Source of the DNA: Candidatus Marinacidobacterium sp.
GTDB lineage: Bacteria; Acidobacteriota; Vicinamibacteria; Marinacidobacterales; Marinacidobacteraceae
Direction of reading: 5' to 3'
Length of the DNA stretch: 64,000 nt
Assembly (NCBI GenBank): GCA_965220965.1
Contig: OZ244852.1
Coordinates: 1,408,001 to 1,472,000 of the forward strand
The notes under the pieces were generated by a model. The model was not told the DNA's origin, ran no database searches, and saw nothing but the letters and a program-made list of their open reading frames with translations. This document shows, piece by piece, positions 41,944 to 56,949 of this stretch; position 1 is the stretch's first letter, and the number at the start of each line of letters is the position of its first letter. The position numbers and the translations under genes are program-made.

Positions 41944-42634
41944 GCGGGACGACCGCCGCAAACCGGCCGCGCGACGCGCCAGGGCGGCCCTCTTCCTCGC
42001 GGCGCTGCTGTCGATCCCCGTGGCGGGAGCGGCCGACGAGGTGGACGAGGACCCGGTTCTCGTCTGGCTGGGCGCGAACGAAATCTCATGGTTGGCCGGC
42101 GATCACTTCAAAGCCGAGTGGGACGCCGAGGCGTGGATCGGCCGCAGCCGCACGCGGTTCTACGTGCGCAAGGAAGGGCTCGCCGACGAAGACGGCGCCT
42201 CGCTCGGCGATCTGGAGTTCCGGGCGTCCCGCGCCATCGGCCCCTTCTGGAATCTGGTCGGCGGTCTCCGCTCGACCGGCGGCGCCGAGCGTCACCAGAT
42301 GGCGATGTTCGGAGTCCAGGGGCTCGGGATCTACCACATCGAGACGAAGCTGACGGGATTTGCGTCCCCGACGGGACGCGTCGGCGCACGGCTCGAGCTC
42401 CATCAGGAGTGGTACCTCAGCCAGAGCCTGATGCTCAGCCCGGGCGTGGATGTCGACTGGGCCACTGGCGACGGACCGCGCCGTCTCCGCACCGAGGCGG
42501 AGATGCGCCTGCTCTACACGGCGAGACGCGACCTCACCCCGTTCGTCGGTGTCCGGTGGGAATACAAGGACCTCCACGGAACCGGACCCGACCGCGCAGT
42601 CCAGTTCGTCGTCGGGATCGCCGGCTGGCGCTGA
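41927..42634 (+). CDS. copB: Copper resistance protein B (outer membrane)
   Basis: Overlaps copA; WDAEAWIG, SRAIGPFWN, GVQGL and PFVGVRW. Confidence 0.85.
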   Translation: MSVRSERDDRRKPAARRARAALFLAALLSIPVAGAADEVDEDPVLVWLGANEISWLAGDHFKAEWDAEAWIGRSRTRFYVRKEGLADEDGASLGDLEFRASRAIGPFWNLVGGLRSTGGAERHQMAMFGVQGLGIYHIETKLTGFASPTGRVGARLELHQEWYLSQSLMLSPGVDVDWATGDGPRRLRTEAEMRLLYTARRDLTPFVGVRWEYKDLHGTGPDRAVQFVVGIAGWR

Positions 42635-42903
42635 GCTGACGCGGCGCGGGCGCGCGCCAGAGCACGGGCCGCCTTAGCCTGCCGATTGCCCGAGTTAATT
42701 CGGCTCCTCGCAGGGTGTGTCGTCTCTTGTCCGGTCGGGAGGAGATCATCCCTTCCGTGCGCTCAAACAGCAGCCGTTCTGGCCGGGTGCGCCCGATGTG
42801 TCTCGTTTTGTCCCACGTGGGCCATAGAGTTGGTTCTTCCGTCAGGGATTTGTAGGACACACTCCAACCGCACAATCGCGCTCTACACAGGAGGAACGAC
42901 GAC

Positions 42904-44109
42904 ATGGCCAAACCCATCACCCTGGATGCCCTTCTTGGGGCCTGCGCTGACGACGGGTTCGACGACGGGATCCGCATCGACACCGAGCTGGAACCGATCG
43001 GGGGACCCGGTGGGTCGGTGAAGCCCGCCGTCTACGAGGGCGGCAAGTACCAACGGGATCAGCGGTGGGCGTCCCCGGACGATCAGGAACCGACGCCCGT
43101 CATCGTGATCGATAACGTCGCCTCCCAGGCCAACCGGCTCGAGGATGCCCTGCGTCGCTACCGCGACGCGGTGGGGATCCCGGAACTCCTGCTCGACCTT
43201 TCGGCCCTGGAATCGCTCCCCGTTCACCTGCCGAGGCGGATTTCGAGTCTTCAGTTTCCGCACCGCAATGCGGACGCCTACCTCCGGGATGCCCGCCTGG
43301 ATGACGAGGACTTCATCCGGACGCCGCTGGGCAAGGCCATCTTCGGTGCGACGGCCCAGACCTGCGGTCCGCTGATGGCCTGGTTCCCTCAGGCGCTGAT
43401 CTATGGCTTCTGGCAGTCCCACCTCGGGAAGAAGAGGCAGAACACGAAGCACCCGCGCGCGTGGGTTTCGGAGATCGTGGGATGGCATCCCGCCTCCAGG
43501 GACACCCGGACCCTCGGACTCAAAGGAGATCCGCTGAATCTCACGAGCGATGCCCAGATCACCGTAAACACACATGACCAGTTGGCGTGGGAGATGGAAC
43601 CGGCGAAGTCGGGAGACGGTGGTGACAGGCTCTCGGAAATCGGACACGGTCAGATTCTCTTCATGCGGGACGATCCAAGAAAGCCGCTGCCGGCCGCGGC
43701 CGTCTCCTTCGCACGCGTATCGCAACGGGCCACGATTTCCTTCGCGCAGCTCCGGCGAGTGAGCCTCGGCCAAGAACACCTGAGGGACGGTGACGCCGCC
43801 GCCCGGGCTCTTCTCGTGGCTCTGGGACTCCACGCTCACGTTCTCGCCTTCGGTCAGGGGTTCGCGCTCAGGTCGGGCGCGGAACTCCGTCCCGTGGAGG
43901 CCCGCGTGAAGTGGCTGGGCGGCACCTCGGATGAGGACTGCACGCTTGGTGATGTCGTAACGAGCCGCAACTTGCTATCGGCCGCACGTGAGTACGCTGG
44001 TACGAACGGCGTCCCACTCGATGGTTGGGGAGCGCCTCCGACGATGCTTAGTCCTTCGAAAAAACTGTCGGCCGCGATCCGCAACACCTGGCCAATCCTG
44101 GAGGACTGA
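42904..44109 (+). CDS. cas7: Type I-G Cas7 (Csb1)
   Basis: AGGAGG SD; VKPAVY, IDNVASQANRLE, PHRNADA, ALIYGFWQS, SEIGHG and LRSGAEL. Confidence 0.92.
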   Translation: MAKPITLDALLGACADDGFDDGIRIDTELEPIGGPGGSVKPAVYEGGKYQRDQRWASPDDQEPTPVIVIDNVASQANRLEDALRRYRDAVGIPELLLDLSALESLPVHLPRRISSLQFPHRNADAYLRDARLDDEDFIRTPLGKAIFGATAQTCGPLMAWFPQALIYGFWQSHLGKKRQNTKHPRAWVSEIVGWHPASRDTRTLGLKGDPLNLTSDAQITVNTHDQLAWEMEPAKSGDGGDRLSEIGHGQILFMRDDPRKPLPAAAVSFARVSQRATISFAQLRRVSLGQEHLRDGDAAARALLVALGLHAHVLAFGQGFALRSGAELRPVEARVKWLGGTSDEDCTLGDVVTSRNLLSAAREYAGTNGVPLDGWGAPPTMLSPSKKLSAAIRNTWPILED

Positions 44110-45563
44110 TGCTCGCTGTCTCGGTCGAATTCCTTCATGGGACGTTTCGCGGTGACCCGGACGGGACCGCCAACACGGGTGGCCTGACCCGAGGTGAGTG
44201 GCCTCCTGCTCCTGCTCGGCTGTTCTCTGCGTTCGTCGCAGCCGATGGCACCAGGGACGCCTGCCGGGTCACGGACGGCAGCGAACTCAACTGGCTCGAA
44301 GCCTTGCCCGCACCGGAGATCTACGCTGAGGAAGCGCCGACCACACGGTCGCTGGAACCACGTTTCGTGGTGCGACACACCGGCAAGTTCGCAGTCAACG
44401 CCACTACCCGACAGCTCGATGTCCACCAGGAGTACGTCGGGCGAAAGGGCGCCGAAGTGCGACCCGGAGTCCGCATCTCGTTGCGGGATCCGCGAGTGGT
44501 CTACAAGTGGGAGGACGCTTCCGCCCCGGATCGTGTCCTGAAGTCCCTACGACTCCGCGCCGCCCGAATCGGCTACCTCGGCGCGGCGGACTCTCCCGTG
44601 CGGGTGCGCGTGTGGGAGAAACCCCCTGTTGACAGCACTCCGCGCGACCGGTTTTTTCCGGATGACGAGGGCGACCACGTCATCTGCGTTCCCCGATCGG
44701 GAGATCTCGAACTACTGGACGGCTGGTTCGATCAGTGGACTGAACGCGGAGCAAGCGTTGGACGCGGGCAGTTTCCCGCGCTTCGCCATGAAGTCCGGTA
44801 CCGCGCTCCCTCGTCCCAAGTATCCGACCAGGGCGGGCGCGTGGTCGCCTGGCTGAGCATTCGACCCGCGGTCTCGGGTCGCCGCGTACGGGAACTCACG
44901 GCGCGCTTCAAGGACAGCGTGTTGAGTCGCTACGAGGCCCTCTACGGTGAGCCGCCTGCTGTCCTCACCGGTCATGGATTCGAGAGCCCGGGATACGAGA
45001 TCGCCCGATACCTCGCGCTGCCGGATGTCGGATTCCCTCGGTCGGGCGGACAGATCCACGGCCTAGCTCTCTGGACGCCGCCTGGGTGGGACCCTCGCCT
45101 CGCCCGCAGGGCTGGCGATGCGGCGCGCGCCATATGGCGAATCCAGGGCGCGACGGTGGACGTCAGGGTGCAGCCGTACGATCGTCTTGATCCGCGCGTG
45201 GCCTCGTCGCCTCGTCGCTGGCTGCAAAGGGCCAACGGCTGGGCAACGGCCTTTCCCGCGATCCACGAGCGACGGAAGACGCTCGATCTCGACGAACTAC
45301 GCCGCTGGTGCGCGCATGCTGGACTCCCGGCGCCCTCGCACTTCCGAACCCACCGCAAACCACTGATTCGAGGCGCCGTCGATCTGGCTCCGGTAGAAGT
45401 GAACCGGCCCGGGCGTCCGGGCCTTCCGTACTCGCACCTGGAGATCTGGTTTCCGGAGCCGGTGAGAGGCCCCGTCGTTGTTGGATCCGGACGACAGCGC
45501 GGGTTTGGGCTGTGCGTCCCGATCCTTGACTCATCCACACCTTCGGCGGGTTCGAAGCCGTGA
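44109..45563 (+). CDS. csb2: Type I-G Cas5/Cas6 fusion Csb2
   Basis: EWPPAPARLFSAFVA, YLGAADS, LALPDVG and GPVVVGSGRQRGFGLC. Confidence 0.92.
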   Translation: MLAVSVEFLHGTFRGDPDGTANTGGLTRGEWPPAPARLFSAFVAADGTRDACRVTDGSELNWLEALPAPEIYAEEAPTTRSLEPRFVVRHTGKFAVNATTRQLDVHQEYVGRKGAEVRPGVRISLRDPRVVYKWEDASAPDRVLKSLRLRAARIGYLGAADSPVRVRVWEKPPVDSTPRDRFFPDDEGDHVICVPRSGDLELLDGWFDQWTERGASVGRGQFPALRHEVRYRAPSSQVSDQGGRVVAWLSIRPAVSGRRVRELTARFKDSVLSRYEALYGEPPAVLTGHGFESPGYEIARYLALPDVGFPRSGGQIHGLALWTPPGWDPRLARRAGDAARAIWRIQGATVDVRVQPYDRLDPRVASSPRRWLQRANGWATAFPAIHERRKTLDLDELRRWCAHAGLPAPSHFRTHRKPLIRGAVDLAPVEVNRPGRPGLPYSHLEIWFPEPVRGPVVVGSGRQRGFGLCVPILDSSTPSAGSKP

Positions 45564-48355
45564 CCCCTCTGGAGGCAGAAATGCGACCAGTGCCGGCGTT
45601 CGCGGACTTCTACCGCGCGATCAACGATCGCGACCCCTTCCCGTGGCAGGACCGCCTCGCCCGACAGGTAGAGGCGCAAGAGGCTTGGCCTCGCGAAGTT
45701 GGGGTTCCGACCGGACTCGGCAAGACGGCCTGCCTTGAGGTCGCGATCTGGTGGCTCGCGTCCCAGGCGCATCGCCCGCCTGCGGACCGAACTGCGCCGA
45801 CGCGCATCTGGTGGGTGGTCAACCGCCGCCTTCTGGTGGATTCGACAGCCGAACACGCGACCAGGCTGGCCGACGAGCTGCTATCCGCTGAACGGTCCCC
45901 AGAGAAGACCAGTCGGGAGCAGGTTCTCGCAACCGTGGCCAGCCGGCTTCGATCTCTCGCCGCGGATCCGGACGCCGACCCACTGCAGGTCATACGCCTT
46001 CGTGGTGGGGTCTCTTCGGATATCCCCATCGATCCGTCCCAGCCCTGTGTACTGCTCTCGACGGTCCCAATGTACGGGTCCAGGCTGCTCTTTCGCGGAT
46101 ATGGGTCCACTCGCAGCCGCAGGCCGATGGACGCAGCGTTGGCGGGAACAGACAGTCTCGTGCTGCTCGACGAGGCTCATCTGGCTTTCCACCTGCGCAA
46201 GCTGATGCCTGCCCTTCGCGAGTGCGCGCCAGAGCAGACTGGAGTACTCCGCCTCCCCCGCGACAGGCCGAGGCTCGTCTCTCTCACCGCGACCGGTGAG
46301 GCCACCAAGTCGGACCGATTCGACCTTGACGCCGAGGACGAGGCTCATCCGGTCGTTCGGCAGCGAGTGCACGCCGCCAAGCCAATGACAGTACGCCAGG
46401 CGAACGGGAAGGCGCACACGAACCTCGTTGAGGCCGCCCTTTCGCTGCTTCCTCCCGACGAATCGCCCGCATCCTGTCTCGTCTTTGCGAATACGCCAGC
46501 AACAGCTCGCGCCGTCTTCGACCTGCTTCAACGGAAGGCCCATCGCTTCGCGGACATCCTCCTGCTCACGGGACGCGCGAGGGAACGAGAGGCGGAGGCC
46601 ATACGGAAACGCATTCTGCATCCCGTCTCGGGCATGCCGTCGGACCGCATCGCATCTGAGAGCCGCAAGCGACACCTCATCGTCGTAGCCACCCAGACAC
46701 TCGAGGTCGGTGCTGATCTCGATGCGGAGTACATGGTGACTGAGGCCTGCGGCGTTCGGGCGCTCACCCAGCGACTCGGCAGGCTGAACCGCTTGGGACG
46801 CCATTCTCGGGCGAGGGCGATCTACATTCACACGGCGCCCAGGAAGGCGCGGCGGGGCGCGCCTGAGTTCGGTTGGCCGGTCTACGGAAAGGAACCGCAA
46901 ACGGTTCTGGAGCGACTCGAGTCTGCCCCAACGCTTGAGGACGGTTCGCTGGACATGTCACCCGGCAACATTACGACCATCCTCGGCGAGCCTCTGGACA
47001 CTCCCGGACGGGCGCCGGAATTGCTCCCTGGTCTGCTGTGGGAGTGGATCAAGACCACGAACCGCCCCTCGGGCGAGGCGGCGGTCGAGCCGTACTTCTC
47101 CGGGATCGCACGACCGAGACGATCCGTGCGGCTGATCTGGCGGGCGCACATTCCCACCGACGAGCAAGAAACACTCTGGCCGCGGCCCCGTGACTCCGAA
47201 GTCGTCGAGGTCTTGATCGGTGAAGCCAGAGAGGCATTGGGCAACGACGAGATGATGGTGGTGGATCCCGACGACATGTCGGTTAGCCCCCAGAGGCTCC
47301 GCCCGGGACATCTGTTCGTGCTGCCCTCGAATCGTGGGCTGATGGACGCGTTTGGATGGAACCCGGCGGCTACGGAACCCGTCGTGGATGTGTCGCTCGA
47401 GGAACACGGATTGCCGCTGAGCACCAGGGCGCTCGATCGGATCTACAGCGGTGCCGCTCCTCCCGAAGCGATCTCGTGTGTGGGGTCGCTTCTGAGGACC
47501 GATGATCAAGGGGAACCGGAAGTTTCCGACCCACGCGAACGCACGGAGACGACAGGCAGGCTTCTCGAGGCGCTCAGGGCCACCGCCCCACCCGGATGGC
47601 TTCCGGATCGTTGGGCGGCCTTCCTCCACTCGCTGAAACCAGAGGTCGTTTCGCCCCGTCGCGAGGCGCCGCGCCTTCACGCTCGCTCCGGTCGAGTTGA
47701 ACCACGCAGCGACGCCGCCGATGAGGCCTCGATGGCTCCCCAGGCCGTCGATTTGGACGCTCACGGCCACGCCGTCGGTGAGCGCGCGCGGGCGGTCGCG
47801 GAACGCCTCGGCCTTGATGGCGCAATCACCGGAGTACTGGACCGCGCCGGGCGGCTTCATGACATCGGCAAGTCAGAGATTCGGTTCCAGCGATGGCTGA
47901 ATCCGGACGGCGAAGAGAACGGTCTCGTCGCGAAATCAACGACGCCCCGTCACCGGTGGGAGGCGACGCGCGCGGCGTCCGGGTGGCCTCGCGGCGGTCG
48001 ACACGAGGACCTCTCGGCCCGGCTGGCACGAAGGTGGCTCGACACGCAGCCCGAACCGACGGATCCAGTCTTCAAGGACCTGTTGATCCACCTGATCATC
48101 AGTCATCACGGCCACGGACGCCCCCTGGTGCGCCCGGTGAGGGACGGTTCGGACGCATCGGTAGAGGCCGTCATCGAAGGCCGGACCGTCGAGGCTTCCA
48201 CCAACCTCGAGATCGTTGACTGGGGTCAGCCCGGCCGCTTTCGTCGGTTGAATGACCGCTTCGGGCCGTGGGGGCTCGCCCTCCTCGAGACGATCATCCG
48301 TCGAGCCGACCACTCGGTTTCCGGCGCCCGAGCCGAACATGGAGAGATCCAGTGA
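45560..48355 (+). CDS. cas3: Type I-G Cas3 helicase with C-terminal HD nuclease
   Basis: PFPWQ, PTGLGKT, VVNRRLLVD, LLDEAH, ATQTLEVGAD, QRLGRLNR; C-terminal LHDIGK, RHE and SHHGHGRP. Confidence 0.95.
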   Translation: MTPLEAEMRPVPAFADFYRAINDRDPFPWQDRLARQVEAQEAWPREVGVPTGLGKTACLEVAIWWLASQAHRPPADRTAPTRIWWVVNRRLLVDSTAEHATRLADELLSAERSPEKTSREQVLATVASRLRSLAADPDADPLQVIRLRGGVSSDIPIDPSQPCVLLSTVPMYGSRLLFRGYGSTRSRRPMDAALAGTDSLVLLDEAHLAFHLRKLMPALRECAPEQTGVLRLPRDRPRLVSLTATGEATKSDRFDLDAEDEAHPVVRQRVHAAKPMTVRQANGKAHTNLVEAALSLLPPDESPASCLVFANTPATARAVFDLLQRKAHRFADILLLTGRAREREAEAIRKRILHPVSGMPSDRIASESRKRHLIVVATQTLEVGADLDAEYMVTEACGVRALTQRLGRLNRLGRHSRARAIYIHTAPRKARRGAPEFGWPVYGKEPQTVLERLESAPTLEDGSLDMSPGNITTILGEPLDTPGRAPELLPGLLWEWIKTTNRPSGEAAVEPYFSGIARPRRSVRLIWRAHIPTDEQETLWPRPRDSEVVEVLIGEAREALGNDEMMVVDPDDMSVSPQRLRPGHLFVLPSNRGLMDAFGWNPAATEPVVDVSLEEHGLPLSTRALDRIYSGAAPPEAISCVGSLLRTDDQGEPEVSDPRERTETTGRLLEALRATAPPGWLPDRWAAFLHSLKPEVVSPRREAPRLHARSGRVEPRSDAADEASMAPQAVDLDAHGHAVGERARAVAERLGLDGAITGVLDRAGRLHDIGKSEIRFQRWLNPDGEENGLVAKSTTPRHRWEATRAASGWPRGGRHEDLSARLARRWLDTQPEPTDPVFKDLLIHLIISHHGHGRPLVRPVRDGSDASVEAVIEGRTVEASTNLEIVDWGQPGRFRRLNDRFGPWGLALLETIIRRADHSVSGARAEHGEIQ

Positions 48356-49257
48356 CAGCGAACCTCGAGTGTCCCGGTCTGCCGGCATACTGGATCAATG
48401 GCTGGCTGGCAGCGGTCGGCGCAACGGTTCTCTGTCCGCAGCTTCGCCTTCGGTGGACGCGAGCGGGCACTCCCCGCGCCGTGCTCTCGATGCGGGACGA
48501 TGCGGTCGACGAAGCCATCGCGGCTTCTTGGCCCACGGCGGCCTACCTTGAGGAACTTCCCATCGCAAAGCAGTGGTCTGGAACTCCGGAGGTCAAGATG
48601 CACCGTGAAGTGTTAATCGACACCTTCGTCCAGCGTGTCCAAGCCGCACGCAGCCATCCGGACTCCTGGACGCTTAGCTCCACGATGACGGACCTCGCCG
48701 TCACGTTAGAGGGACAGGTCGTCCACGCTCCTTTCGACGCGCCCGCGCCACAGGGACTCACCCTGCACGAGCGCCTTCTCAAGACTCACGGCGCGATCGC
48801 CCTACCTCCCACAGCTGAGAGAGTTCGGCAATCTCTCCAAGGACTGGTGGCACGGGTGAGAGGCAACGGACTGGGGTTCGACCAGTCGCGGCTGGCTTCC
48901 TTCGCTGACACTGGCACGAAATTCGTCGATCCAGTAGTCGAAGTCTTGGCGTTCTTCGGTCTGCGACTCCTGCCCGTGCGCGGCCCGGGACGCGAAGCTA
49001 CCCGCCAGAACCCGCCGAGAGCAACCCCACGCAACTGGTCCCTGCCGTCGTCCGGTCCCCGGACACTTCGCTTCCAGTGGCCAGCATGGACGCAGCCCTT
49101 GGACTGGCACGCCATTGATGCCCTGTTGGATGTCTGGAATCCCTCGTGTCCCAAATCCTGGCCGCGGTACGGCGTGCACGCCGCCTGGCAGACCGTTCGC
49201 TACGAGGCGAAGAACCGCCGCAATCCAACGCGTGCGTATGGATCGGAACGGATGTGA
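48352..49257 (+). CDS. csb3: Type I-G large subunit, Csb3/Cas8g2-like
   Basis: GTGA overlap with cas3; NGWLAAVG, LGFD, VEVLAFFGL and FQWPAWTQPL; last gene of the csb1-csb2-cas3 operon. Confidence 0.75.
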   Translation: MTANLECPGLPAYWINGWLAAVGATVLCPQLRLRWTRAGTPRAVLSMRDDAVDEAIAASWPTAAYLEELPIAKQWSGTPEVKMHREVLIDTFVQRVQAARSHPDSWTLSSTMTDLAVTLEGQVVHAPFDAPAPQGLTLHERLLKTHGAIALPPTAERVRQSLQGLVARVRGNGLGFDQSRLASFADTGTKFVDPVVEVLAFFGLRLLPVRGPGREATRQNPPRATPRNWSLPSSGPRTLRFQWPAWTQPLDWHAIDALLDVWNPSCPKSWPRYGVHAAWQTVRYEAKNRRNPTRAYGSERM

Positions 49258-49547: not shown

Positions 49548-51121
49548 GTGTCGCCGGGTTTACAGGCCCCTGCCTTCGTTGGACGAAGTGGCGGGGCTGT
49601 GCGAACGAGATCTTCTTCTTCGAGTGTCGCCGAGGCTCACGCCCGGGCCTTCGTTGAGCGATCCGCAAGGGCATCGACCTTGAGCGCGGACTGGTCAAGT
49701 GTCGCCGGAGTTCACGCCCCGGCCTTGGTTGAGCGTCCTCGAAAGTCAGCGAGACTTCGGCGAAGTGGACTGGTGTCGCCGGGGTTCATGCCCCGGCCTT
49801 CGTTGAGCGAAGATCCGCATGCGCGTCGGCATGGCTGTCACCACCCGTGTCGCCGGGGTTCACGCCCCGGCCTTCGTTGAGCGGTCCAGAGATCCTTCTT
49901 GAACTGATCGTTGACCCACGTGTCGCCGAGCTTCACGCCCCAGCCTTCGTTGAGCGCGCCAGCTTTGCGACTGGCGGTGGCTTTCCCGGCTTGTGTCGCC
50001 GGGGTTCACGCCCCGGCCTTCGTTGAGCGGAGTATGGAGTCGGGGCTCGCAACGGCCCGAACGAGGTGTCGCCGGGGTTCACGCCCCGGCCTTCGTTGAG
50101 CGCTGCCGCCTCCCTCAGACTCGGCATCGGCTTCGAGTGTCGCCGGGGTTCACGCCCCGGCCTTCGTTGAGCGTGCCAGACCCTTCGCCCGTTGATGTCC
50201 ATGGCGAGGCGGGTGTCGCCGGGGTTCACGCCCCGGCCTTCGTTGAGCGCAGAACCCGGAAGCCGTCGGGCGCGTCAGGATGACCGGTGTCGCCGGGGTT
50301 CACGCCCCGGCCTTCGTTGAGCGCGGGCCGGAACGTGCTCGCGCATTCTCCGGCTACATACAAGTGTCGCCGGGGTTCACGCCCCGGCCTTCGTTGAGCG
50401 CTGCCGCCTCCCTCAGACTCGGCATCGGCTTCGAGTGTCGCCGGGGTTCACGCCCCGGCCTTCGTTGAGCGTGCCAGACCCTTCGCCCGTTGATGTCCAT
50501 GGCGAGGCGGGTGTCGCCGGGGTTCACGCCCCGGCCTTCGTTGAGCGCAGAACCCGGAAGCCGTCGGGCGCGTCAGGATGACCGGTGTCGCCGGGGTTCA
50601 CGCCCCGGCCTTCGTTGAGCGCGGGCCGGAACGTGCTCGCGCATTCTCCGGCTACATACAAGTGTCGCCGGGGTTCACGCCCCGGCCTTCGTTGAGCGGG
50701 TGTCGAGTGTCTCATCCCGGAACACGGCGTCCGGCTGTGTCGCCGGGGTTCACGCCCCGGCCTTCGTTGAGCGACATTCCACGATCACACGTGGCACAAC
50801 ATCACCGACTGGTGTCGCCGGGGTTCACGCCGCGGCCTTCGTTGAGCGAATACCCCTATGACACAGCACGGATCGGCCGCCGCCGACCGGGTGTCGCCGG
50901 GGTTCACGCCCCGGCCTTCGTTGAGCGTCGACATCGTGGACGGTCGCGGCGACCAGTGAACCGGGTGTCGCCGGGGTTCACGCCCCGGCCTTCGTTGAGC
51001 GCGCAGCGCGTCGCACAGGTGGTCGTCCCTCTTCAGCGGGTGTCGCCGGGGTTCACGCCCCGGCCTTCGTTGAGCGCGGACGGGCATCGTCCGGGGCCGC
51101 GCCCAGCGCTTCCTGTGTCGC
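49548..51121 (+). CRISPR. Type I-G CRISPR array segment 1: 21 repeats plus a 7-nt truncated repeat
   Basis: 37-bp repeat GTGTCGCCGGGGTTCACGCCCCGGCCTTCGTTGAGCG with a GCCGGGG/CCCCGGC hairpin; spacers 34-42 nt. Confidence 0.97.
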
Positions 51122-51280
51122 TGTTGGCGGGCACGCAAAAGTGCACACATCTGGGCATCCAAAATGGCGCAGTTCGGGGCTTGGCGCGCGGATCGCTGGG
51201 GGCTGTCTGCGGGAGTAGCGTCTCCCAGGGGGAACGGGGATCGGGGCAAGCTGTCGTCTCTACTGACGGAGGGAGGCGTC

Positions 51281-52327
51281 ATGTTCGAGAGGACGAAGAG
51301 GGTTCTGGCGAGGCACTACCTGGACGAGGGGATGAGCAAGGCGGCGGTTGCTCGCCGCGTCGGGGTCGGCAGGAGGACGCTGTACAACTGGATCCGGGGT
51401 GGACTGCTCGAGGGTCGGCTGGGAGACCAGAAGGGCGGATACGGTCCCCGGGGTTCAGGGAGGTCAAAGCTCGAGCCGTTCGAGGAGATCATCCGGGCGC
51501 GGCTGAGCGTCCACCCGCACCTGAGCGCCGTTCGGCTTTTCGAAGAGGTGAGGGCGGCGGGCTACACCGGCGGGTATGACCAGGTGAAGCGGCACGTCCG
51601 GGAGGTCCGGCCTCGGGAGCGGGTGGAGCCGCCAGTCAGGTTCGAGACGCCCCCAGGCCATCAGGGTCAGGTGGACTTCGCGGAGTTCGGGCTGCCGTGG
51701 GGGAGACGCCACGCGCTGATGGTGGTGCTGGGCTATTCGCGTCGACTCTGGCTGCGGTTCTACGAGGGCCAGACGATGATGGTGTTGATCCGCGGCCTTG
51801 AGGAAGCGTTCTCGTATCTGGGGGGCGTGCCGACGGAGTTGTTGTTCGACCAGATGAAGGCGGTGGTGATCGCCGACGGGCGGGGTTCGGGCGGCCGGTT
51901 GGTCAAGAACGCGGAGTTCCGGGGCTTCAGCGATCACTGGGGCTTCCGGATCCGGGCCTGCCGGCCGCATCAGGCGCAGACGAAGGGGAAGGTCGAGCGT
52001 CCGATCCGATACGTGCGGGATAACTTCTTCTACGGGCGCGAGTTCGTGTCTGACGACGACCTGAACGCGCGGGCGCGGCAGTGGCTCGACGATGTGGCCA
52101 ACGTGCGGGTTCACGGGAGCCTGGGGGAGCGCATTGACGAGCGCTTCGCCCGAGAGGCCCCTCTGCTGGGTCCGCTGGCGGAGCGGCCCTACGCCCCGGT
52201 CGTGCCGCGGATCGAAGCGGCGACGAAGCCGGGGCAAGATGTCCGGGGGCCGGGCGTACCGCGCATCGCCGTCGAACGGCGGTCGCTGGAGGACTACGCG
52301 TCAGTCGGCGCAGGGGGAGCGTTGTGA
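51281..52327 (+). CDS. istA: IS21 transposase IstA
   Basis: GGAGG SD; N-terminal HTH, RFETPPG, QVDF, LFDQMK and KGKVER. Confidence 0.93.
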   Translation: MFERTKRVLARHYLDEGMSKAAVARRVGVGRRTLYNWIRGGLLEGRLGDQKGGYGPRGSGRSKLEPFEEIIRARLSVHPHLSAVRLFEEVRAAGYTGGYDQVKRHVREVRPRERVEPPVRFETPPGHQGQVDFAEFGLPWGRRHALMVVLGYSRRLWLRFYEGQTMMVLIRGLEEAFSYLGGVPTELLFDQMKAVVIADGRGSGGRLVKNAEFRGFSDHWGFRIRACRPHQAQTKGKVERPIRYVRDNFFYGREFVSDDDLNARARQWLDDVANVRVHGSLGERIDERFAREAPLLGPLAERPYAPVVPRIEAATKPGQDVRGPGVPRIAVERRSLEDYASVGAGGAL

Positions 52328-53142
52328 AGCCCCGGTCTCGCCGGCAGCACATCGCCGAGCAACTGGCCGACCTGAAGATGCCGGGAGCTCTCGAGGCCCT
52401 GGACGAGGTCCTCGCCGGAGTGGACGGCGGCGGCTACACCGCGTCCGAGGCGATCGATCGGCTGCTGGCTGCGCAGATCGCGCTCCGCAACAGCCGCCGG
52501 CTGGCCACGGCGATGCGCTCCAGCCGTCTTCCGGGGCTGAAGACGCTGCGGGACTTCGACTTCACCTTTCAGCCGTCCCTTCGGCGGGAGCAGATCGACT
52601 CGCTACACGAGCTCGGCTTCCTGGAGCGCAAGGAGAACGTCGTGTTCCTGGGCCCACCGGGTGTGGGGAAGACCCATCTGGCGATCAGCCTGGCGGTCGC
52701 GGCCGCCGAGAACGGGCGCAGGATCTACTTCGGGACGCTGAGCGATCTGATCGAGTCACTCGAAGAGGCCCACGCATCAGGCCGGCTCAAGCAGCGGCTT
52801 CGGACGCTCACGCATCCTGCGCTGCTGGTCGTGGACGAGATCGGGTATCTCTCCGTGACGCCGAACGGAGCCCGGTTGTTCTTCCAGCTCGTGAACGCCC
52901 GCTACCGGCGGGGTTCGACCGTGCTGACCTCGAACAAGGGCTTCGAGCACTGGGGCGAGATCCTGCACGACGAGGTCATGGCGGCAGCCCTCCTGGACCG
53001 CCTGCTGCACCGCTGCCACATCGTCAACATCCGTGGGAACAGCTATCGGATGCGACGTCAGATGGAGCTGTCACGCGCCATTCACCCCACCGCATCCCGG
53101 GCGGCGGAGGCCGAGATCAACCAGCAAGGACGGGAGTCGTGA
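52324..53142 (+). CDS. istB: IS21 helper ATPase IstB
   Basis: GPPGVGKT, LLVVDEIGY, LTSNK, LDRLLH and GNSYR. Confidence 0.95.
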   Translation: MKPRSRRQHIAEQLADLKMPGALEALDEVLAGVDGGGYTASEAIDRLLAAQIALRNSRRLATAMRSSRLPGLKTLRDFDFTFQPSLRREQIDSLHELGFLERKENVVFLGPPGVGKTHLAISLAVAAAENGRRIYFGTLSDLIESLEEAHASGRLKQRLRTLTHPALLVVDEIGYLSVTPNGARLFFQLVNARYRRGSTVLTSNKGFEHWGEILHDEVMAAALLDRLLHRCHIVNIRGNSYRMRRQMELSRAIHPTASRAAEAEINQQGRES

Positions 53143-53283
53143 AGCCTCGCCGCACCGCCGGTCCGGCCCCCACTCCGGTCGCTCCGCTCCCTCCGCGGCG
53201 GCCAGACCGAACTGTGCCATTTTCGGCGCCCAAATGTGTGCCATTTTCGATGCCCATTGACACTCGGATCCTTGCTGACTGGG

Positions 53284-53776
53284 GTGTCGCCGGGGTTCAC
53301 GCCCCGGCCTTCGTTGAGCGACGAAGGCATCGAACTCGGTCAGCTCGTCTGTCTCCCGTGTCGCCGGGGTTCACGCCCCGGCCTTCGTTGAGCGGGCGTG
53401 GAATGCTTGATTCCGGAGCATGGCGTCCGGGTCGTGTCGCCGGGGTTCACGCCCCGGCCTTCGTTGAGCGCCGAGGTCGGTTGATTCCGTCGTCGTGATG
53501 TAGTCGACGGGTGTCGCCGGGGTTCACGCCCCGGCCTTCGTTGAGCGCGGCCGCAACTCGCACAGGTCGAATCCCACTCCTCCCAAGGTGTCGCCGGGGT
53601 TCACGCCCCGGCCTTCGTTGAGCGCGGCCGCAACTCGCACAGGTCGAATCCCACTCCTCCCAAGGTGTCGCCGGGGTTCACGCCCCGGCCTTCGTTGAGC
53701 GCACGACAACCCGATGGCGGACCGCCTGACGGTCTGGGCGTGTCGCCGGGGTTCACACCCCAGCCTTCATTGAGCG
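53284..53776 (+). CRISPR. CRISPR array segment 2: 7 repeats flanked by partial spacers
   Basis: Same 37-bp repeat; the last copy is degenerate. Confidence 0.97.
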
Positions 53777-54034
53777 ACCGAATCCGCACGCTGTTGGCTG
53801 CACGGCAAGACTTCCCAGAAGTTGCAGACGAGAACTGCCCAGAAGTTGAACACGAGAACTGCCCAGCCGGGGAGGTCGGATTCGGTTGAGGCAAGGGGGG
53901 AGCGGAGGACCGCGCAATGGGGGCAGACTTGGGGGCGGGCCGGGGAGCAGCGGAGAGCGTGGGGCTTGCGGCCCGGTGAGGGAGACGTTGGCAGGTCGGG
54001 GACTGGACTCCTTGCCGCGGCCCGCGGAGAGACG

Positions 54035-55078
54035 ATGCATGGGCCAGAGAAGAGGGCGCGGTTCCAGGAGCTTCGGAAGACGGGGCTGAGCCGGAGGGCG
54101 ATCGCGCGGGAGCTCGGGGTGAGCAGAAGGACGCTGTATGTCTGGGAGCGGGAGGGGGCGTCGTGGTCGGGCCGGTCCCGGCCACGCCCGCCGGTGGCGA
54201 GCATCTTGGACCCGTTCAAGGAGCTGATCAGGGAGCGGCTGGCGCTGGCTCCGAGGCTGTCGGCGGAGCGGGTGTTCCAGGAGATCCGGGAGTACGGGTA
54301 CGTCGGGGGATACCGGCTGGTGAGCCGGTATGTGTCGGAGGTGCGTCCCCGGCGGAAGGAGGACCCGGTGGTCCGCTTCGAGACGAAGCCCGGGGTTCAA
54401 GGGCAAGTGGACTTCGCGACCTTCCGGTTCGCCTGGGGAGTCACGCATGCGGTGGTTGTGCTGCTGGGCTACTCGCGGATGCTGTGGTTCCGGTTCGTGG
54501 AGAGCCAGAAGCAGGAGGTTCTGATCCGGGGGCTGGAGGACGCGTTCGTGTTCTTCGGGGGTGTCCCTCAGGAGCTGCTGTTCGATCAGACGAAGGCGGT
54601 GGTGGTTCGGGACGAGCGCTCGCGGGGCGGGGAGCTGTTGAAGAACCGGGACTTCGAGCTGTTCGCGGAGCACTGGGGCTTCGCGATCCGGGCCTGCCGT
54701 CCGTATCGTGCGCGGACGAAGGGGAAGGTGGAGCGGGCGATCCGTTATCTGCGCGACGGCTTCGCGTATGCGCGGGAGTTCGCTTCGCTGGAGGATGCCA
54801 ACCAGCAGGCGCTGCGCTGGCTGGAGCAGGTCGGGAACCGGCGGGAGCTGAAGGCGCTGACCCGGGCGACGGGACGGAAGCAGACGCCGCTGGGGAGGCT
54901 CGAGGATGGGAGGCCGCATCTGATGCCGCTGATGTCGCGCCGGTGGCCGGGGTTGAGGCCGATGGTGTCCGAGGCGCGGCGGGAGGCTTCGGTGGGGACA
55001 GTGGGTTCCGGTGTTCCCCGTCGGGTGGTGGTGGAGCGTCGGCCTCTGTCGGAGTATGCCGAGCTGGCCGGGAGCTGA
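54035..55078 (+). CDS. istA: IS21 transposase IstA
   Basis: HTH SRRAIARELGVSRRT, RFETKPG, QVDF, LFDQTK and KGKVER. Confidence 0.92.
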   Translation: MHGPEKRARFQELRKTGLSRRAIARELGVSRRTLYVWEREGASWSGRSRPRPPVASILDPFKELIRERLALAPRLSAERVFQEIREYGYVGGYRLVSRYVSEVRPRRKEDPVVRFETKPGVQGQVDFATFRFAWGVTHAVVVLLGYSRMLWFRFVESQKQEVLIRGLEDAFVFFGGVPQELLFDQTKAVVVRDERSRGGELLKNRDFELFAEHWGFAIRACRPYRARTKGKVERAIRYLRDGFAYAREFASLEDANQQALRWLEQVGNRRELKALTRATGRKQTPLGRLEDGRPHLMPLMSRRWPGLRPMVSEARREASVGTVGSGVPRRVVVERRPLSEYAELAGS

Positions 55079-55081
55079 GCG

Positions 55082-55909
55082 ATGGCGCTGAAGACGATGA
55101 AGCCGGCGACGAGGCGGGAGCGGATCGCGGCGCAGCTGGTGGACCTGAAGCTTCCGGGAGCGCTGGAGGTTCTGGACCAGGTCCTGTCAGGACTTGACGG
55201 GGCGACGCTGAGCGGCGGGGAGGCGATCGAGGAGCTGCTGGGGGCACACATCGAGCTCCGGAACCGGCGGCGGCTGAAGGCGGCGGTGCGTTCGAGCCGG
55301 CTGCCGGCGATCAAGCGGCGGGAGGACTTCGTGATGAGCTTCCAGCCGTCGCTGAAGCCGGAGCAGATCGACTCGCTGTTCGAGCTGGACTTCCTGGACC
55401 GGCAGGAGAACGTGGTGTTCCTGGGCCCTCCGGGGGTTGGGAAGACGCACCTTGCGATCGCGCTGGCCGTGAAGGCTGCGGAGCAGGGCCGCCGGGTGTA
55501 CTTCGGATCGCTGAAGGATCTGGTGGAGTCGCTGGAGGAGGCTCGGGCGGCGGGACACTTGCGGCGGCGACTGAAGGTCCTGACCTATCCGCCGCTGCTG
55601 GTGGTGGACGAGGTGGGGTATCTGTCGCTGACGCGTGACGGAGCGGCGCTGTTCTTCCAGTTGATCAACGCGCGCTACGAGCGGGGCTCGACGGTGCTGA
55701 CGTCGAACAAGGGGTTCGAGGAGTGGGGGCAACTGCTGGGGGACGAGGTGATGACGGCGGCGCTGCTGGACCGCCTGGTGCACAAGTGCCACATCGTGAC
55801 CATCAGTGGGAACAGCTACCGGATGCAGGAGCACCGCGAGCTGGCGAAACGGCTGTGGCCAGGGCGGCTGGCGAACGCCGAGGGCGTGTCAACGGGAGGA
55901 GAGCGGTGA
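55082..55909 (+). CDS. istB: IS21 helper ATPase IstB
   Basis: GPPGVGKT, LLVVDEVGY, LTSNK and GNSYR. Confidence 0.95.
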   Translation: MALKTMKPATRRERIAAQLVDLKLPGALEVLDQVLSGLDGATLSGGEAIEELLGAHIELRNRRRLKAAVRSSRLPAIKRREDFVMSFQPSLKPEQIDSLFELDFLDRQENVVFLGPPGVGKTHLAIALAVKAAEQGRRVYFGSLKDLVESLEEARAAGHLRRRLKVLTYPPLLVVDEVGYLSLTRDGAALFFQLINARYERGSTVLTSNKGFEEWGQLLGDEVMTAALLDRLVHKCHIVTISGNSYRMQEHRELAKRLWPGRLANAEGVSTGGER

Positions 55910-56053
55910 GGCGCGGCGGCGGTTGGGAGGGCGGTGGCGTAGCGAGGGGCGGGGTCGAAACGCCGCCCTTCTACTCGCCGCGAGTAGCCCATACCCGACT
56001 CGTCTCAACCACCCCCAAGCAGCCGTCCCTCCTTTGACGACGTCCCGATCTCA

Positions 56054-56130
56054 TGTCAATGGGCACCGAAAATGGCACACATTTGGGCACCGAAAATGGC
56101 GCACTTCCGGGCGCCGAGGATGTCGCATGT
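56054..56130 (-). mobile_element. Orphan IS21 terminal repeat, an inverted near-copy of the element 1 right end
   Basis: TGTCAATGGGCACCGAAAATGGCACACATTTGGGCACCGAAAATGGCGCAC matches the reverse complement of about 53209-53262 with few mismatches. Confidence 0.88.
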
Positions 56131-56186
56131 CGGTCCAACCGAGGCGCAGGGCGGATCCATGGCGCGCTACCGCGGCGTGTGCGGTC

Positions 56187-56949
56187 CTGTCGCAGGGGTT
56201 CACACCCCGGCCTTCGTTGAGCGCAGTTGGCCCGGAGTCTCACGTATCGCGCGATCCGTGTCGCCGGAGTTCACACCCCGGCCCTCGTTGAGCATGCTAC
56301 GACGCGCACTCCCCCGGCAACCTGCCCGCGGTGTCGCCGGGGTTCACTGCCCCGGCCTTCGTTGAGCGCCGAACCACCACGTGACAGTCGTCGTGGCGAG
56401 GAAGGTGTCGCCGGGGTTCACGCCCCGGCCTTCGTTGAGCGGACGACAAGACGGAGGCGCTGGTCGACATGGCCGGTGGTGTCGCCGGGGTTCACTGCCC
56501 CGGCCTTCGTTGAGCGGGGTTGCTACCGATGGCGGCGAGGCCGCTGAGGAGAGTGTCGCCGGGGTTCACACCCCGGCCTTCGTTGAGCGTCCGCCACACT
56601 GGCCGGGACCCCGGCGCTCCGCGCCGTGTGTCGCCGGGGTTCACGCCCCGGCCTTCGTTGAGCGATGAAGTAGATTCCTTCCAACTGCCCCAACCCTCAG
56701 CATGTGTCGCCGGGGTTCACGCCCCGGCCTTCGTTGAGCGCGGCTGCGGCTGAGCGACATTCGGCCCATCGAGGATCTGGGTGTCGCCGGGGTTCACGCC
56801 CCGGCCTTCGTTGAGCGACCATCCACCGCCGCCTCCCCGACGGAGACGTGCGCCTGTGTCGCCGGGGTTGACCCCACGGCCTTCGTTGAGCGTGTCCGAC
56901 TCTGGCCAGGTGGGACGGGTGGCGCGTAAGAGGTGTCGCCGGGGTTCAC
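56187..56949 (+). CRISPR. CRISPR array segment 3: 10 repeats plus a 17-nt truncated repeat
   Basis: Same repeat; several variant copies, two with a T insertion. Confidence 0.96.

What the first reader, a model, noticed from the sequence alone, without database searches (positions are those of the whole stretch)
50699..53433. Two spacers encode the same peptide with only synonymous differences
Seen: spacer 50699-50736 (GGT GTC GAG TGT CTC ATC CCG GAA CAC GGC GTC CGG) and spacer 53395-53433 (GGC GTG GAA TGC TTG ATT CCG GAG CAT GGC GTC CGG) both translate to GVECLIPEHGVR. They start at the same base and differ at 9 of 36 positions, all silent. Inference: independent acquisitions at the same PAM-adjacent site of a conserved gene in two related invaders, or an invader recoded under CRISPR pressure. 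Mutation within the array would not preserve codons.
Basis: partly seen in the sequence, partly recalled or inferred. Interest (0 to 1): 0.7.

Follow-up and report, generated by a model that had tools for sequence, protein, structure and literature searches.

The report
Two CRISPR spacers, one conserved peptide
Two spacers in one bacterial CRISPR array are diverged copies of the same short protein-coding stretch, most likely captured separately from two distant relatives of one invader; this is a neat but expected outcome of known CRISPR biology, and the invader itself could not be found.

Summary
Spacer A (50699-50736, 38 nt) and spacer B (53395-53433, 39 nt) align without offset and differ at 9 of the first 36 positions. 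All 9 differences are silent in + frame 1 (GVECLIPEHGVR). A tenth difference lies at position 37.

This is not chance. Of 33 unique spacers they are the only related pair: score 18, next best 9, shuffled maximum 9 of 3168. Nine random substitutions were all silent in any frame in 7-24 of 200000 trials.

The array is a type I-G array. Two IS21-like elements cut it, and it carries exact internal duplications.

Best reading: two separate, PAM-anchored captures of the homologous site of a strongly conserved gene. The two sources are anciently diverged, with synonymous sites saturated (pS 0.87). That argues against recent CRISPR-driven recoding and against drift inside the array.

No protospacer was found in viral, metagenome or genome collections, phages, plasmids, the organism's own genome or 400 other genomes of its class. 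Target gene, PAM and frame therefore remain unconfirmed.

Virus-side synonymous variation at spacer targets is already in print (PMC2612747). Interest is modest.

The parts
50699..50736 (+). Spacer A, 38 nt; + frame 1 reads GVECLIPEHGVR, followed by CT
53395..53433 (+). Spacer B, 39 nt; + frame 1 reads GVECLIPEHGVRV; 10 differences from A over the 38 aligned nt
49548..56949 (+). CRISPR array with a 37-nt repeat (GTGTCGCC...GTTGAGCG) and spacers of 34-42 nt. Repeats are degenerate at both ends, and the last repeat is cut to 17 nt. It is the only array with this repeat in the genome.
50662..50698 (+). Reference repeat copy. On the + strand it folds as 5 nt, an 8-bp hairpin and a 12-nt tail. The tail fits the published type I-G processing pattern of 4 nt plus an 8-nt 5' handle.
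   Evidence: passages of PMC9638904 read
42904..44109 (+). Cas7g (Csb1)
   Evidence: TIGR02570, 53.5 bits, cut-off 38; PF09617
44109..45563 (+). Csb2 (Cas5-Cas6 fusion, the enzyme that processes crRNA in type I-G)
   Evidence: TIGR02165, 179.4 bits, cut-off 45
45560..48355 (+). Cas3g helicase-nuclease
   Evidence: TIGR02621, 615.8 bits, cut-off 400
48268..49257 (+). Type I-G 'Cas3-extension' protein, possibly a small Cas8g-like subunit
   Evidence: NF049934, 63.7 bits, just under the cut-off of 65; PADLOC Cas8g model, E 1.1e-7, C-terminal 58 residues only
51120..53262 (+). IS21-family element 1 (istA 51164-52327, istB 52324-53142) inside the array. Its left flank is 7 nt of a repeat and its right flank is a 21-nt spacer remnant, so there is no target-site duplication.
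53792..56053 (+). IS21-like element 2 (istA-like 53822-55078, istB 55082-55909). Its own right end was not seen.
56054..56186 (+). Solo terminal fragment of an element like IS 1; 56054-56107 is 93% complementary to the right end of IS 1 (53209-53262)
50066..50661 (+). Exact tandem duplication of four repeat-spacer units (2 x 298 nt, 100% identical)
53548..53664 (+). Two identical 40-nt spacers in neighbouring units (53548-53587 and 53625-53664)

Best explanation
Spacers A and B are two separate captures of the same PAM-adjacent site in a strongly conserved protein-coding gene. The captures came from two anciently diverged homologues, most simply two distantly related members of one family of phage, plasmid or other mobile element. 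A type I-G adaptation machinery made them.

Shown here: the two spacers are homologous, in register, and differ only in ways that are silent in + frame 1.

Inferred:
- The PAM end is cut precisely, which gives the identical 5' start. The far end is trimmed loosely, which gives 38 against 39 nt.
- Each crRNA would pair with the other variant with a mismatch at seed position 3 and five more at paired positions (9, 13, 15, 27, 37). The differences at positions 6, 12, 18 and 24 fall on the every-sixth base that type I-G Cascade does not pair.
- One spacer would therefore probably not give interference against the other variant, so keeping both widens immunity.
- The older spacer may have primed capture of the newer one.

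The array itself now looks old and decaying. It has IS21 insertions, internal duplications and degenerate ends, and no Cas1, Cas2 or Cas4 gene lies beside it.
For: 1. Homology and register: 28 of 38 identical at offset 0. This is the only related pair among 33 unique spacers (score 18; next best 9; shuffled maximum 9 of 3168).
2. Coding signature: 8 of 9 differences are at codon position 3. The ninth (position 13) is paired with position 15, so Leu stays Leu. All-silent outcomes arose in 7 and 24 of 200000 random trials.
3. Choice of frame: I enumerated all 59049 base choices at the 10 differing sites. The forward frame is fully silent in 108. If only the reverse frame were constrained to conservative changes, the forward frame would be fully silent in 72 of 4374. 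If the forward frame is silent, the reverse frame looks conservative in 72 of 108. The reverse-frame conservation is therefore largely a by-product of forward-frame coding.
4. Ancient divergence: pS 0.87.
5. Not drift in place: all four flanking repeats are perfect, and the known duplications in this array are 100% identical.
6. Not an assembly collapse: the two spacers have different neighbouring spacers.
7. System and polarity: Cas7g, Csb2 and Cas3g lie upstream on the same strand. The repeat folds as a hairpin plus 4 nt plus an 8-nt handle on the + strand, as reported for type I-G (PMC9638904, passages). In type I-G adaptation the Cas4 domain cuts the PAM end sequence-specifically, while the other end is processed without sequence specificity (PMC10504553, passages).
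8. The 5+1 pairing periodicity of type I-G Cas7 is reported in PMC9638904 (passage).
Against: No protospacer was found, so nothing outside the two spacers confirms that they come from a gene, from this frame or from two different elements.
- The back-translated 12-residue pattern gave 0 matches in viral contigs, genome contigs and metagenome contigs.
- The same pattern with up to 3 mismatches matched only the two spacers themselves in the 61 genomes (own genome plus 60 relatives), the 55 genomes of the order and the 401 genomes sampled from the class. These three sets overlap.
- Shorter and relaxed patterns gave either nothing or hits that do not extend beyond the enforced residues.
- The best such hit, L015/L023 (FVECLIPEHGNR, 10 of 12 residues), lies antisense to a 232-aa ORF on the other strand.

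The eight differing codons all fall in the first nine codons (P 0.018, a post hoc test). I cannot explain this; it could be chance or codon preference.

Array polarity, and so which spacer is older, is not settled, because repeats are degenerate at both ends. No Cas1, Cas2 or Cas4 lies next to this array. The only copies are on contig C2 beside a different array, so the machinery that made the captures is not identified.
Confidence: 0.78

Rival explanations
1. Same mechanism, but the two protospacers are paralogous copies of one gene or domain within a single invader genome. They may have been captured in one episode, for example by primed adaptation.
For: Nothing in the spacers separates two genomes from two paralogues. 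Type I systems can take several spacers from one element during priming (abstracts seen in the listing).
Against: Paralogues with saturated synonymous divergence (pS 0.87), an identical 12-residue peptide and a conserved PAM position within one small mobile genome are a less common situation than homologues in two related elements. This is inference only, with no direct test.
Confidence: 0.08
2. The gene is read on the opposite strand (reverse frame 1: SRTPCSGMRHST against TRTPCSGIKHST), and the perfect forward-frame peptide is a coincidence of shared wobble positions.
For: Forward frame 1 and reverse frame 1 share their third-codon positions. The reverse frame shows only three changes, all conservative (S/T, M/I, R/K), with pN 0.11 and pS 0.74.
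Against: If only the reverse frame were constrained, the forward frame would be fully silent in 72 of 4374 enumerated cases (1.6%). Forward-frame silence makes the reverse frame look conservative in 72 of 108 cases. The coordinated CTC-to-TTG change keeps Leu in the forward frame. A reverse-frame pattern found 0 matches in viral contigs, but so did the forward patterns, so this does not discriminate between the frames.
Confidence: 0.06
3. One invader lineage was recoded at this site under CRISPR pressure from the first spacer, and the host then captured the escaped version.
For: Viral populations do carry silent and conservative variants at spacer targets, down to about 70% nucleotide identity (PMC2612747, abstract and passages read). 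All differing codons lie in the PAM-proximal 27 nt (P 0.018, post hoc).
Against: Eight of 12 codons differ and pS is 0.87. Escape needs one PAM or seed mutation, so nine silent changes in 27 nt look like long-term divergence of the whole gene rather than local selection. Without flanking sequence this cannot be tested directly.
Confidence: 0.05
4. One spacer was duplicated inside the array and the copies then drifted apart, or the similarity is chance.
For: This array does duplicate units: a 298-nt tandem duplication and a one-unit duplication. Duplicated spacers within arrays are known (PMC4524480, passages read).
Against: The existing duplicates are 100% identical. A 26% divergence confined to silent sites is expected in 7-24 of 200000 random trials. 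The four flanking repeats carry no change. Chance similarity is excluded.
Confidence: 0.01

Closest known systems
Silent and conservative variants of a spacer target in a natural virome (Heidelberg et al. 2009, PMC2612747; abstract and passages read)
   Same: A conserved phage gene (lysozyme-like) is a CRISPR target. Its variants differ from the spacer by silent or conservative changes, down to about 70% nucleotide identity with the peptide conserved. Here the identity is 74% (28 of 38).
   Different: There the variation was seen on the virus side, against one spacer. Here both variants are stored as spacers in one host array, and the virus side is unknown.
Repeated independent capture of the same protospacer, and duplicated spacers within arrays (Kupczok et al. 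2015, PMC4524480, passages; Legionella type I-C priming, PMC5071653, figure-legend passage)
   Same: The same PAM-adjacent site can be captured more than once, and arrays can hold more than one copy of a spacer.
   Different: Those cases concern identical sequences. Here the two copies are homologous but anciently diverged, so they record two different source genomes or paralogues.
Type I-G (formerly I-U) CRISPR-Cas (PMC9638904, PMC10504553; passages read)
   Same: Cas7g, Csb2 and Cas3g are present. The repeat is 37 nt with a hairpin, 4 nt and an 8-nt handle. Capture is PAM-end-defined.
   Different: No csx17-type Cas8g was detected, only a 329-aa 'Cas3-extension' protein with a weak Cas8g match. 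There is no Cas4/1 or Cas2 in cis. Gene order is cas7-csb2-cas3-extension.
Primed adaptation in type I systems (listing and abstracts only)
   Same: A mismatched spacer can still trigger capture of new spacers from the escaped invader. That would give a route from the older to the newer of the two spacers.
   Different: Priming was not tested here. I found no statement on priming in type I-G in what I read. Whether 6 paired mismatches allow priming in this system is unknown.

Membership tests
Type I-G CRISPR-Cas system | Cas7g (Csb1/GSU0053 family) | tested here: met
   TIGR02570, 53.5 bits against a cut-off of 38. PF09617, 116 bits..
Type I-G CRISPR-Cas system | Csb2 (Cas5-Cas6 fusion) | tested here: met
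   TIGR02165, 179.4 bits against a cut-off of 45, full length..
Type I-G CRISPR-Cas system | Cas3g | tested here: met
   TIGR02621, 615.8 bits against a cut-off of 400.
Type I-G CRISPR-Cas system | Large subunit Cas8g (Csx17) | tested here: inconclusive
   TIGR04113 found nothing in the genome, but its control rang in 0 of 14 genomes. ORF 48268-49257 matches a PADLOC Cas8g model only over its last 58 residues (E 1.1e-7). It scores 63.7 bits against the NCBIfam Cas3-extension model, just under the cut-off of 65.
Type I-G CRISPR-Cas system | Cas4/1 fusion and Cas2 next to the array | tested here: not met
   The only Cas4, Cas1 and Cas2 matches in the genome are on contig C2 at 324010-325657. They appear as separate matches beside an array with a different repeat.
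Type I-G CRISPR-Cas system | Repeat of 36-37 nt with a hairpin, processed 4 nt after the stem to leave an 8-nt 5' handle | tested here: inconclusive
   The predicted fold on the + strand has an 8-bp stem and a 12-nt tail, which fits the pattern reported in PMC9638904. Processing itself was not tested, and the minus strand also folds (-16.3 against -17.1 kcal/mol).
Spacer pair captured from homologous coding protospacers | The two spacers align in register and differ mainly at synonymous sites | tested here: met
Spacer pair captured from homologous coding protospacers | Protospacers lie in homologous genes, in that frame, next to the same PAM | not testable with these tools
   No protospacer was found in any collection searched.
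IS21 family insertion sequence | IstA transposase followed by the IstB helper ATPase | tested here: met
   Element 1: NF033546, 270.3 bits, and NF038214, 272.8 bits. Element 2: rve domain plus PF01695, 255.7 bits.
IS21 family insertion sequence | Intact termini with a target-site duplication | tested here: not met
   The flanks of element 1 are 7 nt of a repeat on the left and a 21-nt spacer remnant on the right. The right end of element 2 was not seen, and a solo end fragment follows it.

The most novel reading that the evidence does not exclude
The pair is a natural record of 'spacer updating' in a type I-G system. An older spacer had lost interference against a diverged relative of its original target, because of a seed mismatch at position 3. 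It still bound well enough to prime a new capture at the very same PAM site. Four of the ten differences fall on the unpaired every-sixth positions, because the spacer starts on a codon's first base. On this reading, spacers that start in frame are inherently more tolerant of synonymous drift in their targets, since half of all wobble positions coincide with the bases Cascade does not read.
Probability: 0.15. Interest if true: 0.55.

Novelty: new member of a known kind. Interest (0 to 1): 0.3.

Why it matters
The pair shows, from the host side alone, that a CRISPR array can hold two 'alleles' of immunity against one highly conserved peptide-coding site. It also shows that codon-phase analysis of related spacers can reveal the reading frame and conservation of a target gene when the invader is absent from every database.

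The method could be applied at scale to 'dark-matter' spacers: search arrays for in-register spacer pairs with period-3 differences. The biological principle is already established. Hosts sample conserved invader genes, and invaders vary silently at the targeted sites. With the target unknown, this single case adds an example rather than a new mechanism.

Tried and rejected
Searches for the protospacer, all without a credible hit:
- blastn-short of all spacers against the organism's own genome. Outside the array the longest matches were 23 nt or less. The best for A was 19 nt with 1 mismatch, and for B 18 nt with 1 mismatch or 16 nt exact.
- A six-frame BLOSUM62 scan of the own genome with the forward and reverse peptides. 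The best non-self score for the forward peptide was 35, against 35-39 for five shuffles of that peptide. The reverse peptides scored 40 and 38, with no shuffled control of their own.
- The back-translated 12-residue pattern: 0 matches in viral contigs, genome contigs and metagenome contigs.
- The same pattern with up to 3 mismatches in the 61 genomes (own plus 60 relatives), 55 genomes of the order and 401 of the class. These sets overlap. Only the two spacers themselves matched.
- ECLIPEHGV and ECLIPEHG in viral contigs: 0 and 0.
- GVECLIPE in viral contigs: 5 loci. LIPEHGVR in viral contigs: 2 loci. None matches beyond the enforced residues.
- ECLIPEHG in metagenome contigs (15 loci) and genome contigs (16 loci). 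None of the 31 has both GV before and VR after, and many are interrupted by stops. L015/L023 (10 of 12 residues) is antisense to a 232-aa ORF that spans the site. From a recalled motif that ORF looks like a phosphoglycerate mutase; I did not test this.
- A relaxed forward pattern allowing conservative replacements, and a reverse-frame pattern, in viral contigs: 0 and 0.
- Array segments 49600-51110 and 53284-53776 against phages and plasmids by blastn with 11-nt words at E up to 0.1: no match. The third array segment (56187-56949) was not searched this way.
- The look-up of sequencing runs on 60 nt centred on spacer A: none was listed.

Lead not taken further: three related viral contigs (L004, L006, L007) carry GVECFIPD. 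In L004 it lies inside an ORF that Pfam calls Amidase_3 (74.4 bits); the ORFs of L006 and L007 were not scanned. My recollection, not tested, is that this is near the Glu zinc-ligand motif of that endolysin family. Only the residues enforced by the pattern match, so this is no evidence about the spacers' target.

Comparative dating failed. The repeat, allowing up to 3 mismatches, was absent from both same-genus genomes and from 27 of the 28 other relatives searched. Only G039, in another family of the same order, has 3 similar repeats.

Literature: searches found no paper describing two synonymous-variant spacers within one array. That is a limited search of the held library, not proof of absence. 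Supplementary files were not consulted.

Structure prediction, complex prediction, the search of protein representatives, the protein-atlas search and the search for homologous proteins gave nothing or were not applicable, because the only 'protein' here is 12-13 residues long.

Full report
WHAT IS THERE

The window is C1:1408001-1472000 of a 3.25-Mb genome in two contigs, with 71-73% G+C. Positions 49548 to 56949 hold one CRISPR array on the + strand. Its repeat is 37 nt (GTGTCGCC...GTTGAGCG) and its spacers are 34-42 nt. It is the only array with this repeat in the genome.

Type I-G genes lie directly upstream on the same strand:
- Cas7g/Csb1, 42904-44109
- Csb2, 44109-45563
- Cas3g, 45560-48355
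- a 329-aa 'Cas3-extension' protein, 48268-49257, with a weak match to a Cas8g model

copA and copB precede these genes.

On the + strand the repeat folds into an 8-bp hairpin followed by 12 nt. This fits the type I-G rule reported for Thioalkalivibrio, in which Csb2 cuts 4 nt after the stem and leaves an 8-nt 5' handle (PMC9638904, passages read). I therefore read the array on the + strand. The minus strand also forms a hairpin, so this polarity rests on analogy.

THE OBSERVATION

Spacer A (50699-50736, 38 nt) and spacer B (53395-53433, 39 nt) align at offset 0 with 28 of 38 identical bases. The differences are at positions 3, 6, 9, 12, 13, 15, 18, 24, 27 and 37. In + frame 1 both read GVECLIPEHGVR. 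Eight of the nine differences in the first 36 nt are at third codon positions. The ninth (position 13) combines with position 15 to change CTC to TTG, Leu to Leu.

IS IT MORE THAN CHANCE?

- In an all-against-all ungapped comparison of 33 unique spacers on both strands, this pair scores 18. The next best pair scores 9, and the best of 3168 comparisons of shuffled spacers is also 9.
- Nine random substitutions placed in the first 36 nt of A were all synonymous in at least one of six frames in 7 of 200000 trials with uniform substitutions, and in 24 of 200000 with a transition bias.
- The chance that at least 8 of 9 differences share one given codon phase is 1.3e-4.

WHICH FRAME?

Forward frame 1 and reverse frame 1 share their wobble positions. 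The reverse frame therefore also looks conserved: SRTPCSGMRHST against TRTPCSGIKHST, three conservative changes, pN 0.11 and pS 0.74.

To separate the two frames I enumerated all 59049 base choices at the ten differing sites:
- The forward frame is fully silent in 108 cases.
- Among the 4374 cases in which the reverse frame shows only silent or conservative changes, the forward frame is fully silent in 72 (1.6%).
- Among the 108 forward-silent cases, the reverse frame looks conservative in 72 (67%).

The reverse-frame conservation is thus mostly a by-product of forward-frame coding, and not the other way round. I put the forward frame at roughly nine to one.

WHAT THE DIVERGENCE SAYS

In the forward frame Sd is 8.0 over 9.17 synonymous sites, giving pS 0.87. 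The single 'non-synonymous' step in that count is an artefact of averaging the two paths for CTC to TTG. Synonymous sites are saturated while 12 residues are unchanged. The two sources are therefore anciently diverged homologues of a very strongly constrained stretch. They are not recent variants of one invader.

Escape needs only one PAM or seed change (abstract of PMC12871591 in the listing, and general knowledge).

Drift after duplication inside the array is also excluded in practice. The array's real duplications are 100% identical: a 2 x 298-nt tandem of four units, and a one-unit duplicate. All four repeats flanking A and B are perfect.

The two spacers have different neighbouring spacers, so an assembly collapse is not the cause.

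MECHANISM (INFERRED)

[quoted passage not shown] The other end is processed without sequence specificity (PMC10504553, passages). That explains an identical 5' start with a 3' end that differs by one base.

Type I-G Cas7 holds the crRNA in a 5+1 pattern, with every sixth base unpaired (PMC9638904, passage). Because these spacers start on a codon's first base, the differences at positions 6, 12, 18 and 24 fall on unpaired positions. Six effective mismatches remain (positions 3, 9, 13, 15, 27, 37), one of them in the PAM-proximal seed. By the rules known for type I-E, which I have not tested for type I-G, this would block interference but might still allow priming. Keeping both spacers would then cover both variants, and the older spacer may have primed capture of the newer.

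Which spacer is older is not settled, because repeats are degenerate at both ends of the array.

THE TARGET WAS NOT FOUND

- The own genome has no match at DNA level. At peptide level the forward peptide scores no better than its shuffles; the reverse peptides were not given a shuffled control.
- The back-translated 12-residue pattern has 0 matches in viral contigs, genome contigs and metagenome contigs.
- With up to 3 mismatches it matches only the two spacers themselves in the 61 genomes (own plus 60 relatives), 55 genomes of the order and 401 of the class (overlapping sets).
- Shorter patterns gave 0 or small sets of hits: 5 and 2 viral loci, 15 metagenome loci and 16 genome loci. None of these matches beyond the enforced residues.
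- The closest, L015/L023 (10 of 12 residues), is antisense to a 232-aa ORF.
- A relaxed forward pattern and a reverse-frame pattern each gave 0 in viral contigs.
- Two of the three array segments gave no blastn match in phages or plasmids.
- No sequencing run was listed.

One lead only: GVECFIPD occurs in three related viral contigs, and in one of them (L004) it lies inside an ORF that Pfam calls Amidase_3, an endolysin family. Only the pattern-enforced residues match.

STATE OF THE LOCUS

- Two IS21-family elements interrupt the array. Element 1 (51120-53262) has 7 nt of a repeat on its left and a 21-nt spacer remnant on its right. There is no target-site duplication, so array material was lost or rearranged there.
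- Element 2 begins at 53792. A solo end fragment follows at 56054-56186; its first 54 nt (56054-56107) are 93% complementary to the right end of element 1.
- The last repeat is cut to 17 nt.
- The only Cas4, Cas1 and Cas2 matches in the genome lie on contig C2, beside an array with a different repeat.
- The two same-genus genomes searched lack this repeat.

The array therefore looks like an old record that is no longer growing. The two spacers are historical.

COMPARISON WITH WHAT IS KNOWN

The virus-side counterpart is in print. In a hot-spring virome, variants of a lysozyme-like gene differed from a host spacer by silent or conservative changes, down to about 70% nucleotide identity (PMC2612747; abstract and passages read). 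Repeated capture of one protospacer and duplicated spacers within arrays are also known (PMC5071653; PMC4524480). My three literature searches for synonymous-variant spacer pairs within one array found no description of that exact situation.

I class the finding as a new example of a known kind of event.

VERDICT

The 'recoding' alternative is unlikely. Interest is modest (0.3). The transferable idea is that codon-phase analysis of related spacers can expose the frame and constraint of an unknown target.

Noticed in passing
window 51077-53283: IS21-family element 1 sits between 7 nt of a CRISPR repeat (left) and a 21-nt spacer remnant (right). There is no target-site duplication, which implies deletion or IS-mediated rearrangement of array units.
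   Followed up: partly
window 53777-56186: A second, about 75% similar IS21-like element starts at 53792, after a 15-nt spacer remnant. Its own right end was not seen. At 56054-56186 a solo terminal fragment follows; 56054-56107 is 93% complementary to the right end of element 1.
   Followed up: partly
window 50066-50661: Exact tandem duplication of four repeat-spacer units (2 x 298 nt, 100% identical). It could be a real recent duplication or an assembly effect.
   Followed up: no
window 53548-53664: Two identical 40-nt spacers in adjacent units.
   Followed up: no
window 42634-49257 and genome contig C2:324010-325657: The chromosomal type I-G locus has cas7g, csb2, cas3g and a 329-aa Cas3-extension/Cas8g-like gene, but no csx17-type Cas8g, Cas4/1 or Cas2. 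The only Cas4, Cas1 and Cas2 matches in the genome are on C2.
   Followed up: partly
genome contig C2:326016-327274 and C2:332258-333321: Two further CRISPR arrays with different repeats: about 30 nt (GTTCCCAATCCCC...) next to Cas2 with an A+T-rich upstream stretch, and about 29 nt (GTTGGCCCCGCC...). None of the chromosomal spacers compared matched them.
   Followed up: no
window 56933-56949: The last repeat of the array is truncated after 17 nt. It is followed by two copies of GCGCGTCAATCAG within about 40 nt.
   Followed up: no
window 40096-42634: The copper-resistance genes copA (multicopper oxidase, 739.9 bits) and copB lie directly upstream of cas7g, leaving about 270 bp with no room for a large Cas8 gene.
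   Followed up: no
genome contig C1:171084-171517: A run of imperfect tandem repeats. It appears to lie in coding sequence, which I did not test. My simple array finder flagged it; it lacks the repeat-and-unique-spacer layout of a CRISPR array.
   Followed up: no
G039:C1:351969-352005, 387999-388035, 903874-903910: A 9.2-Mb genome of another family in the same order carries repeats 3 mismatches away from this array's repeat at three separate places. The two same-genus genomes carry none.
   Followed up: no
L004:1336-1905 (-), L006, L007: Three related viral contigs carry GVECFIPD. In L004 it lies inside an ORF that Pfam calls Amidase_3, an endolysin family; the ORFs of L006 and L007 were not scanned. 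This is a possible but untested lead to the kind of gene the spacers target.
   Followed up: partly
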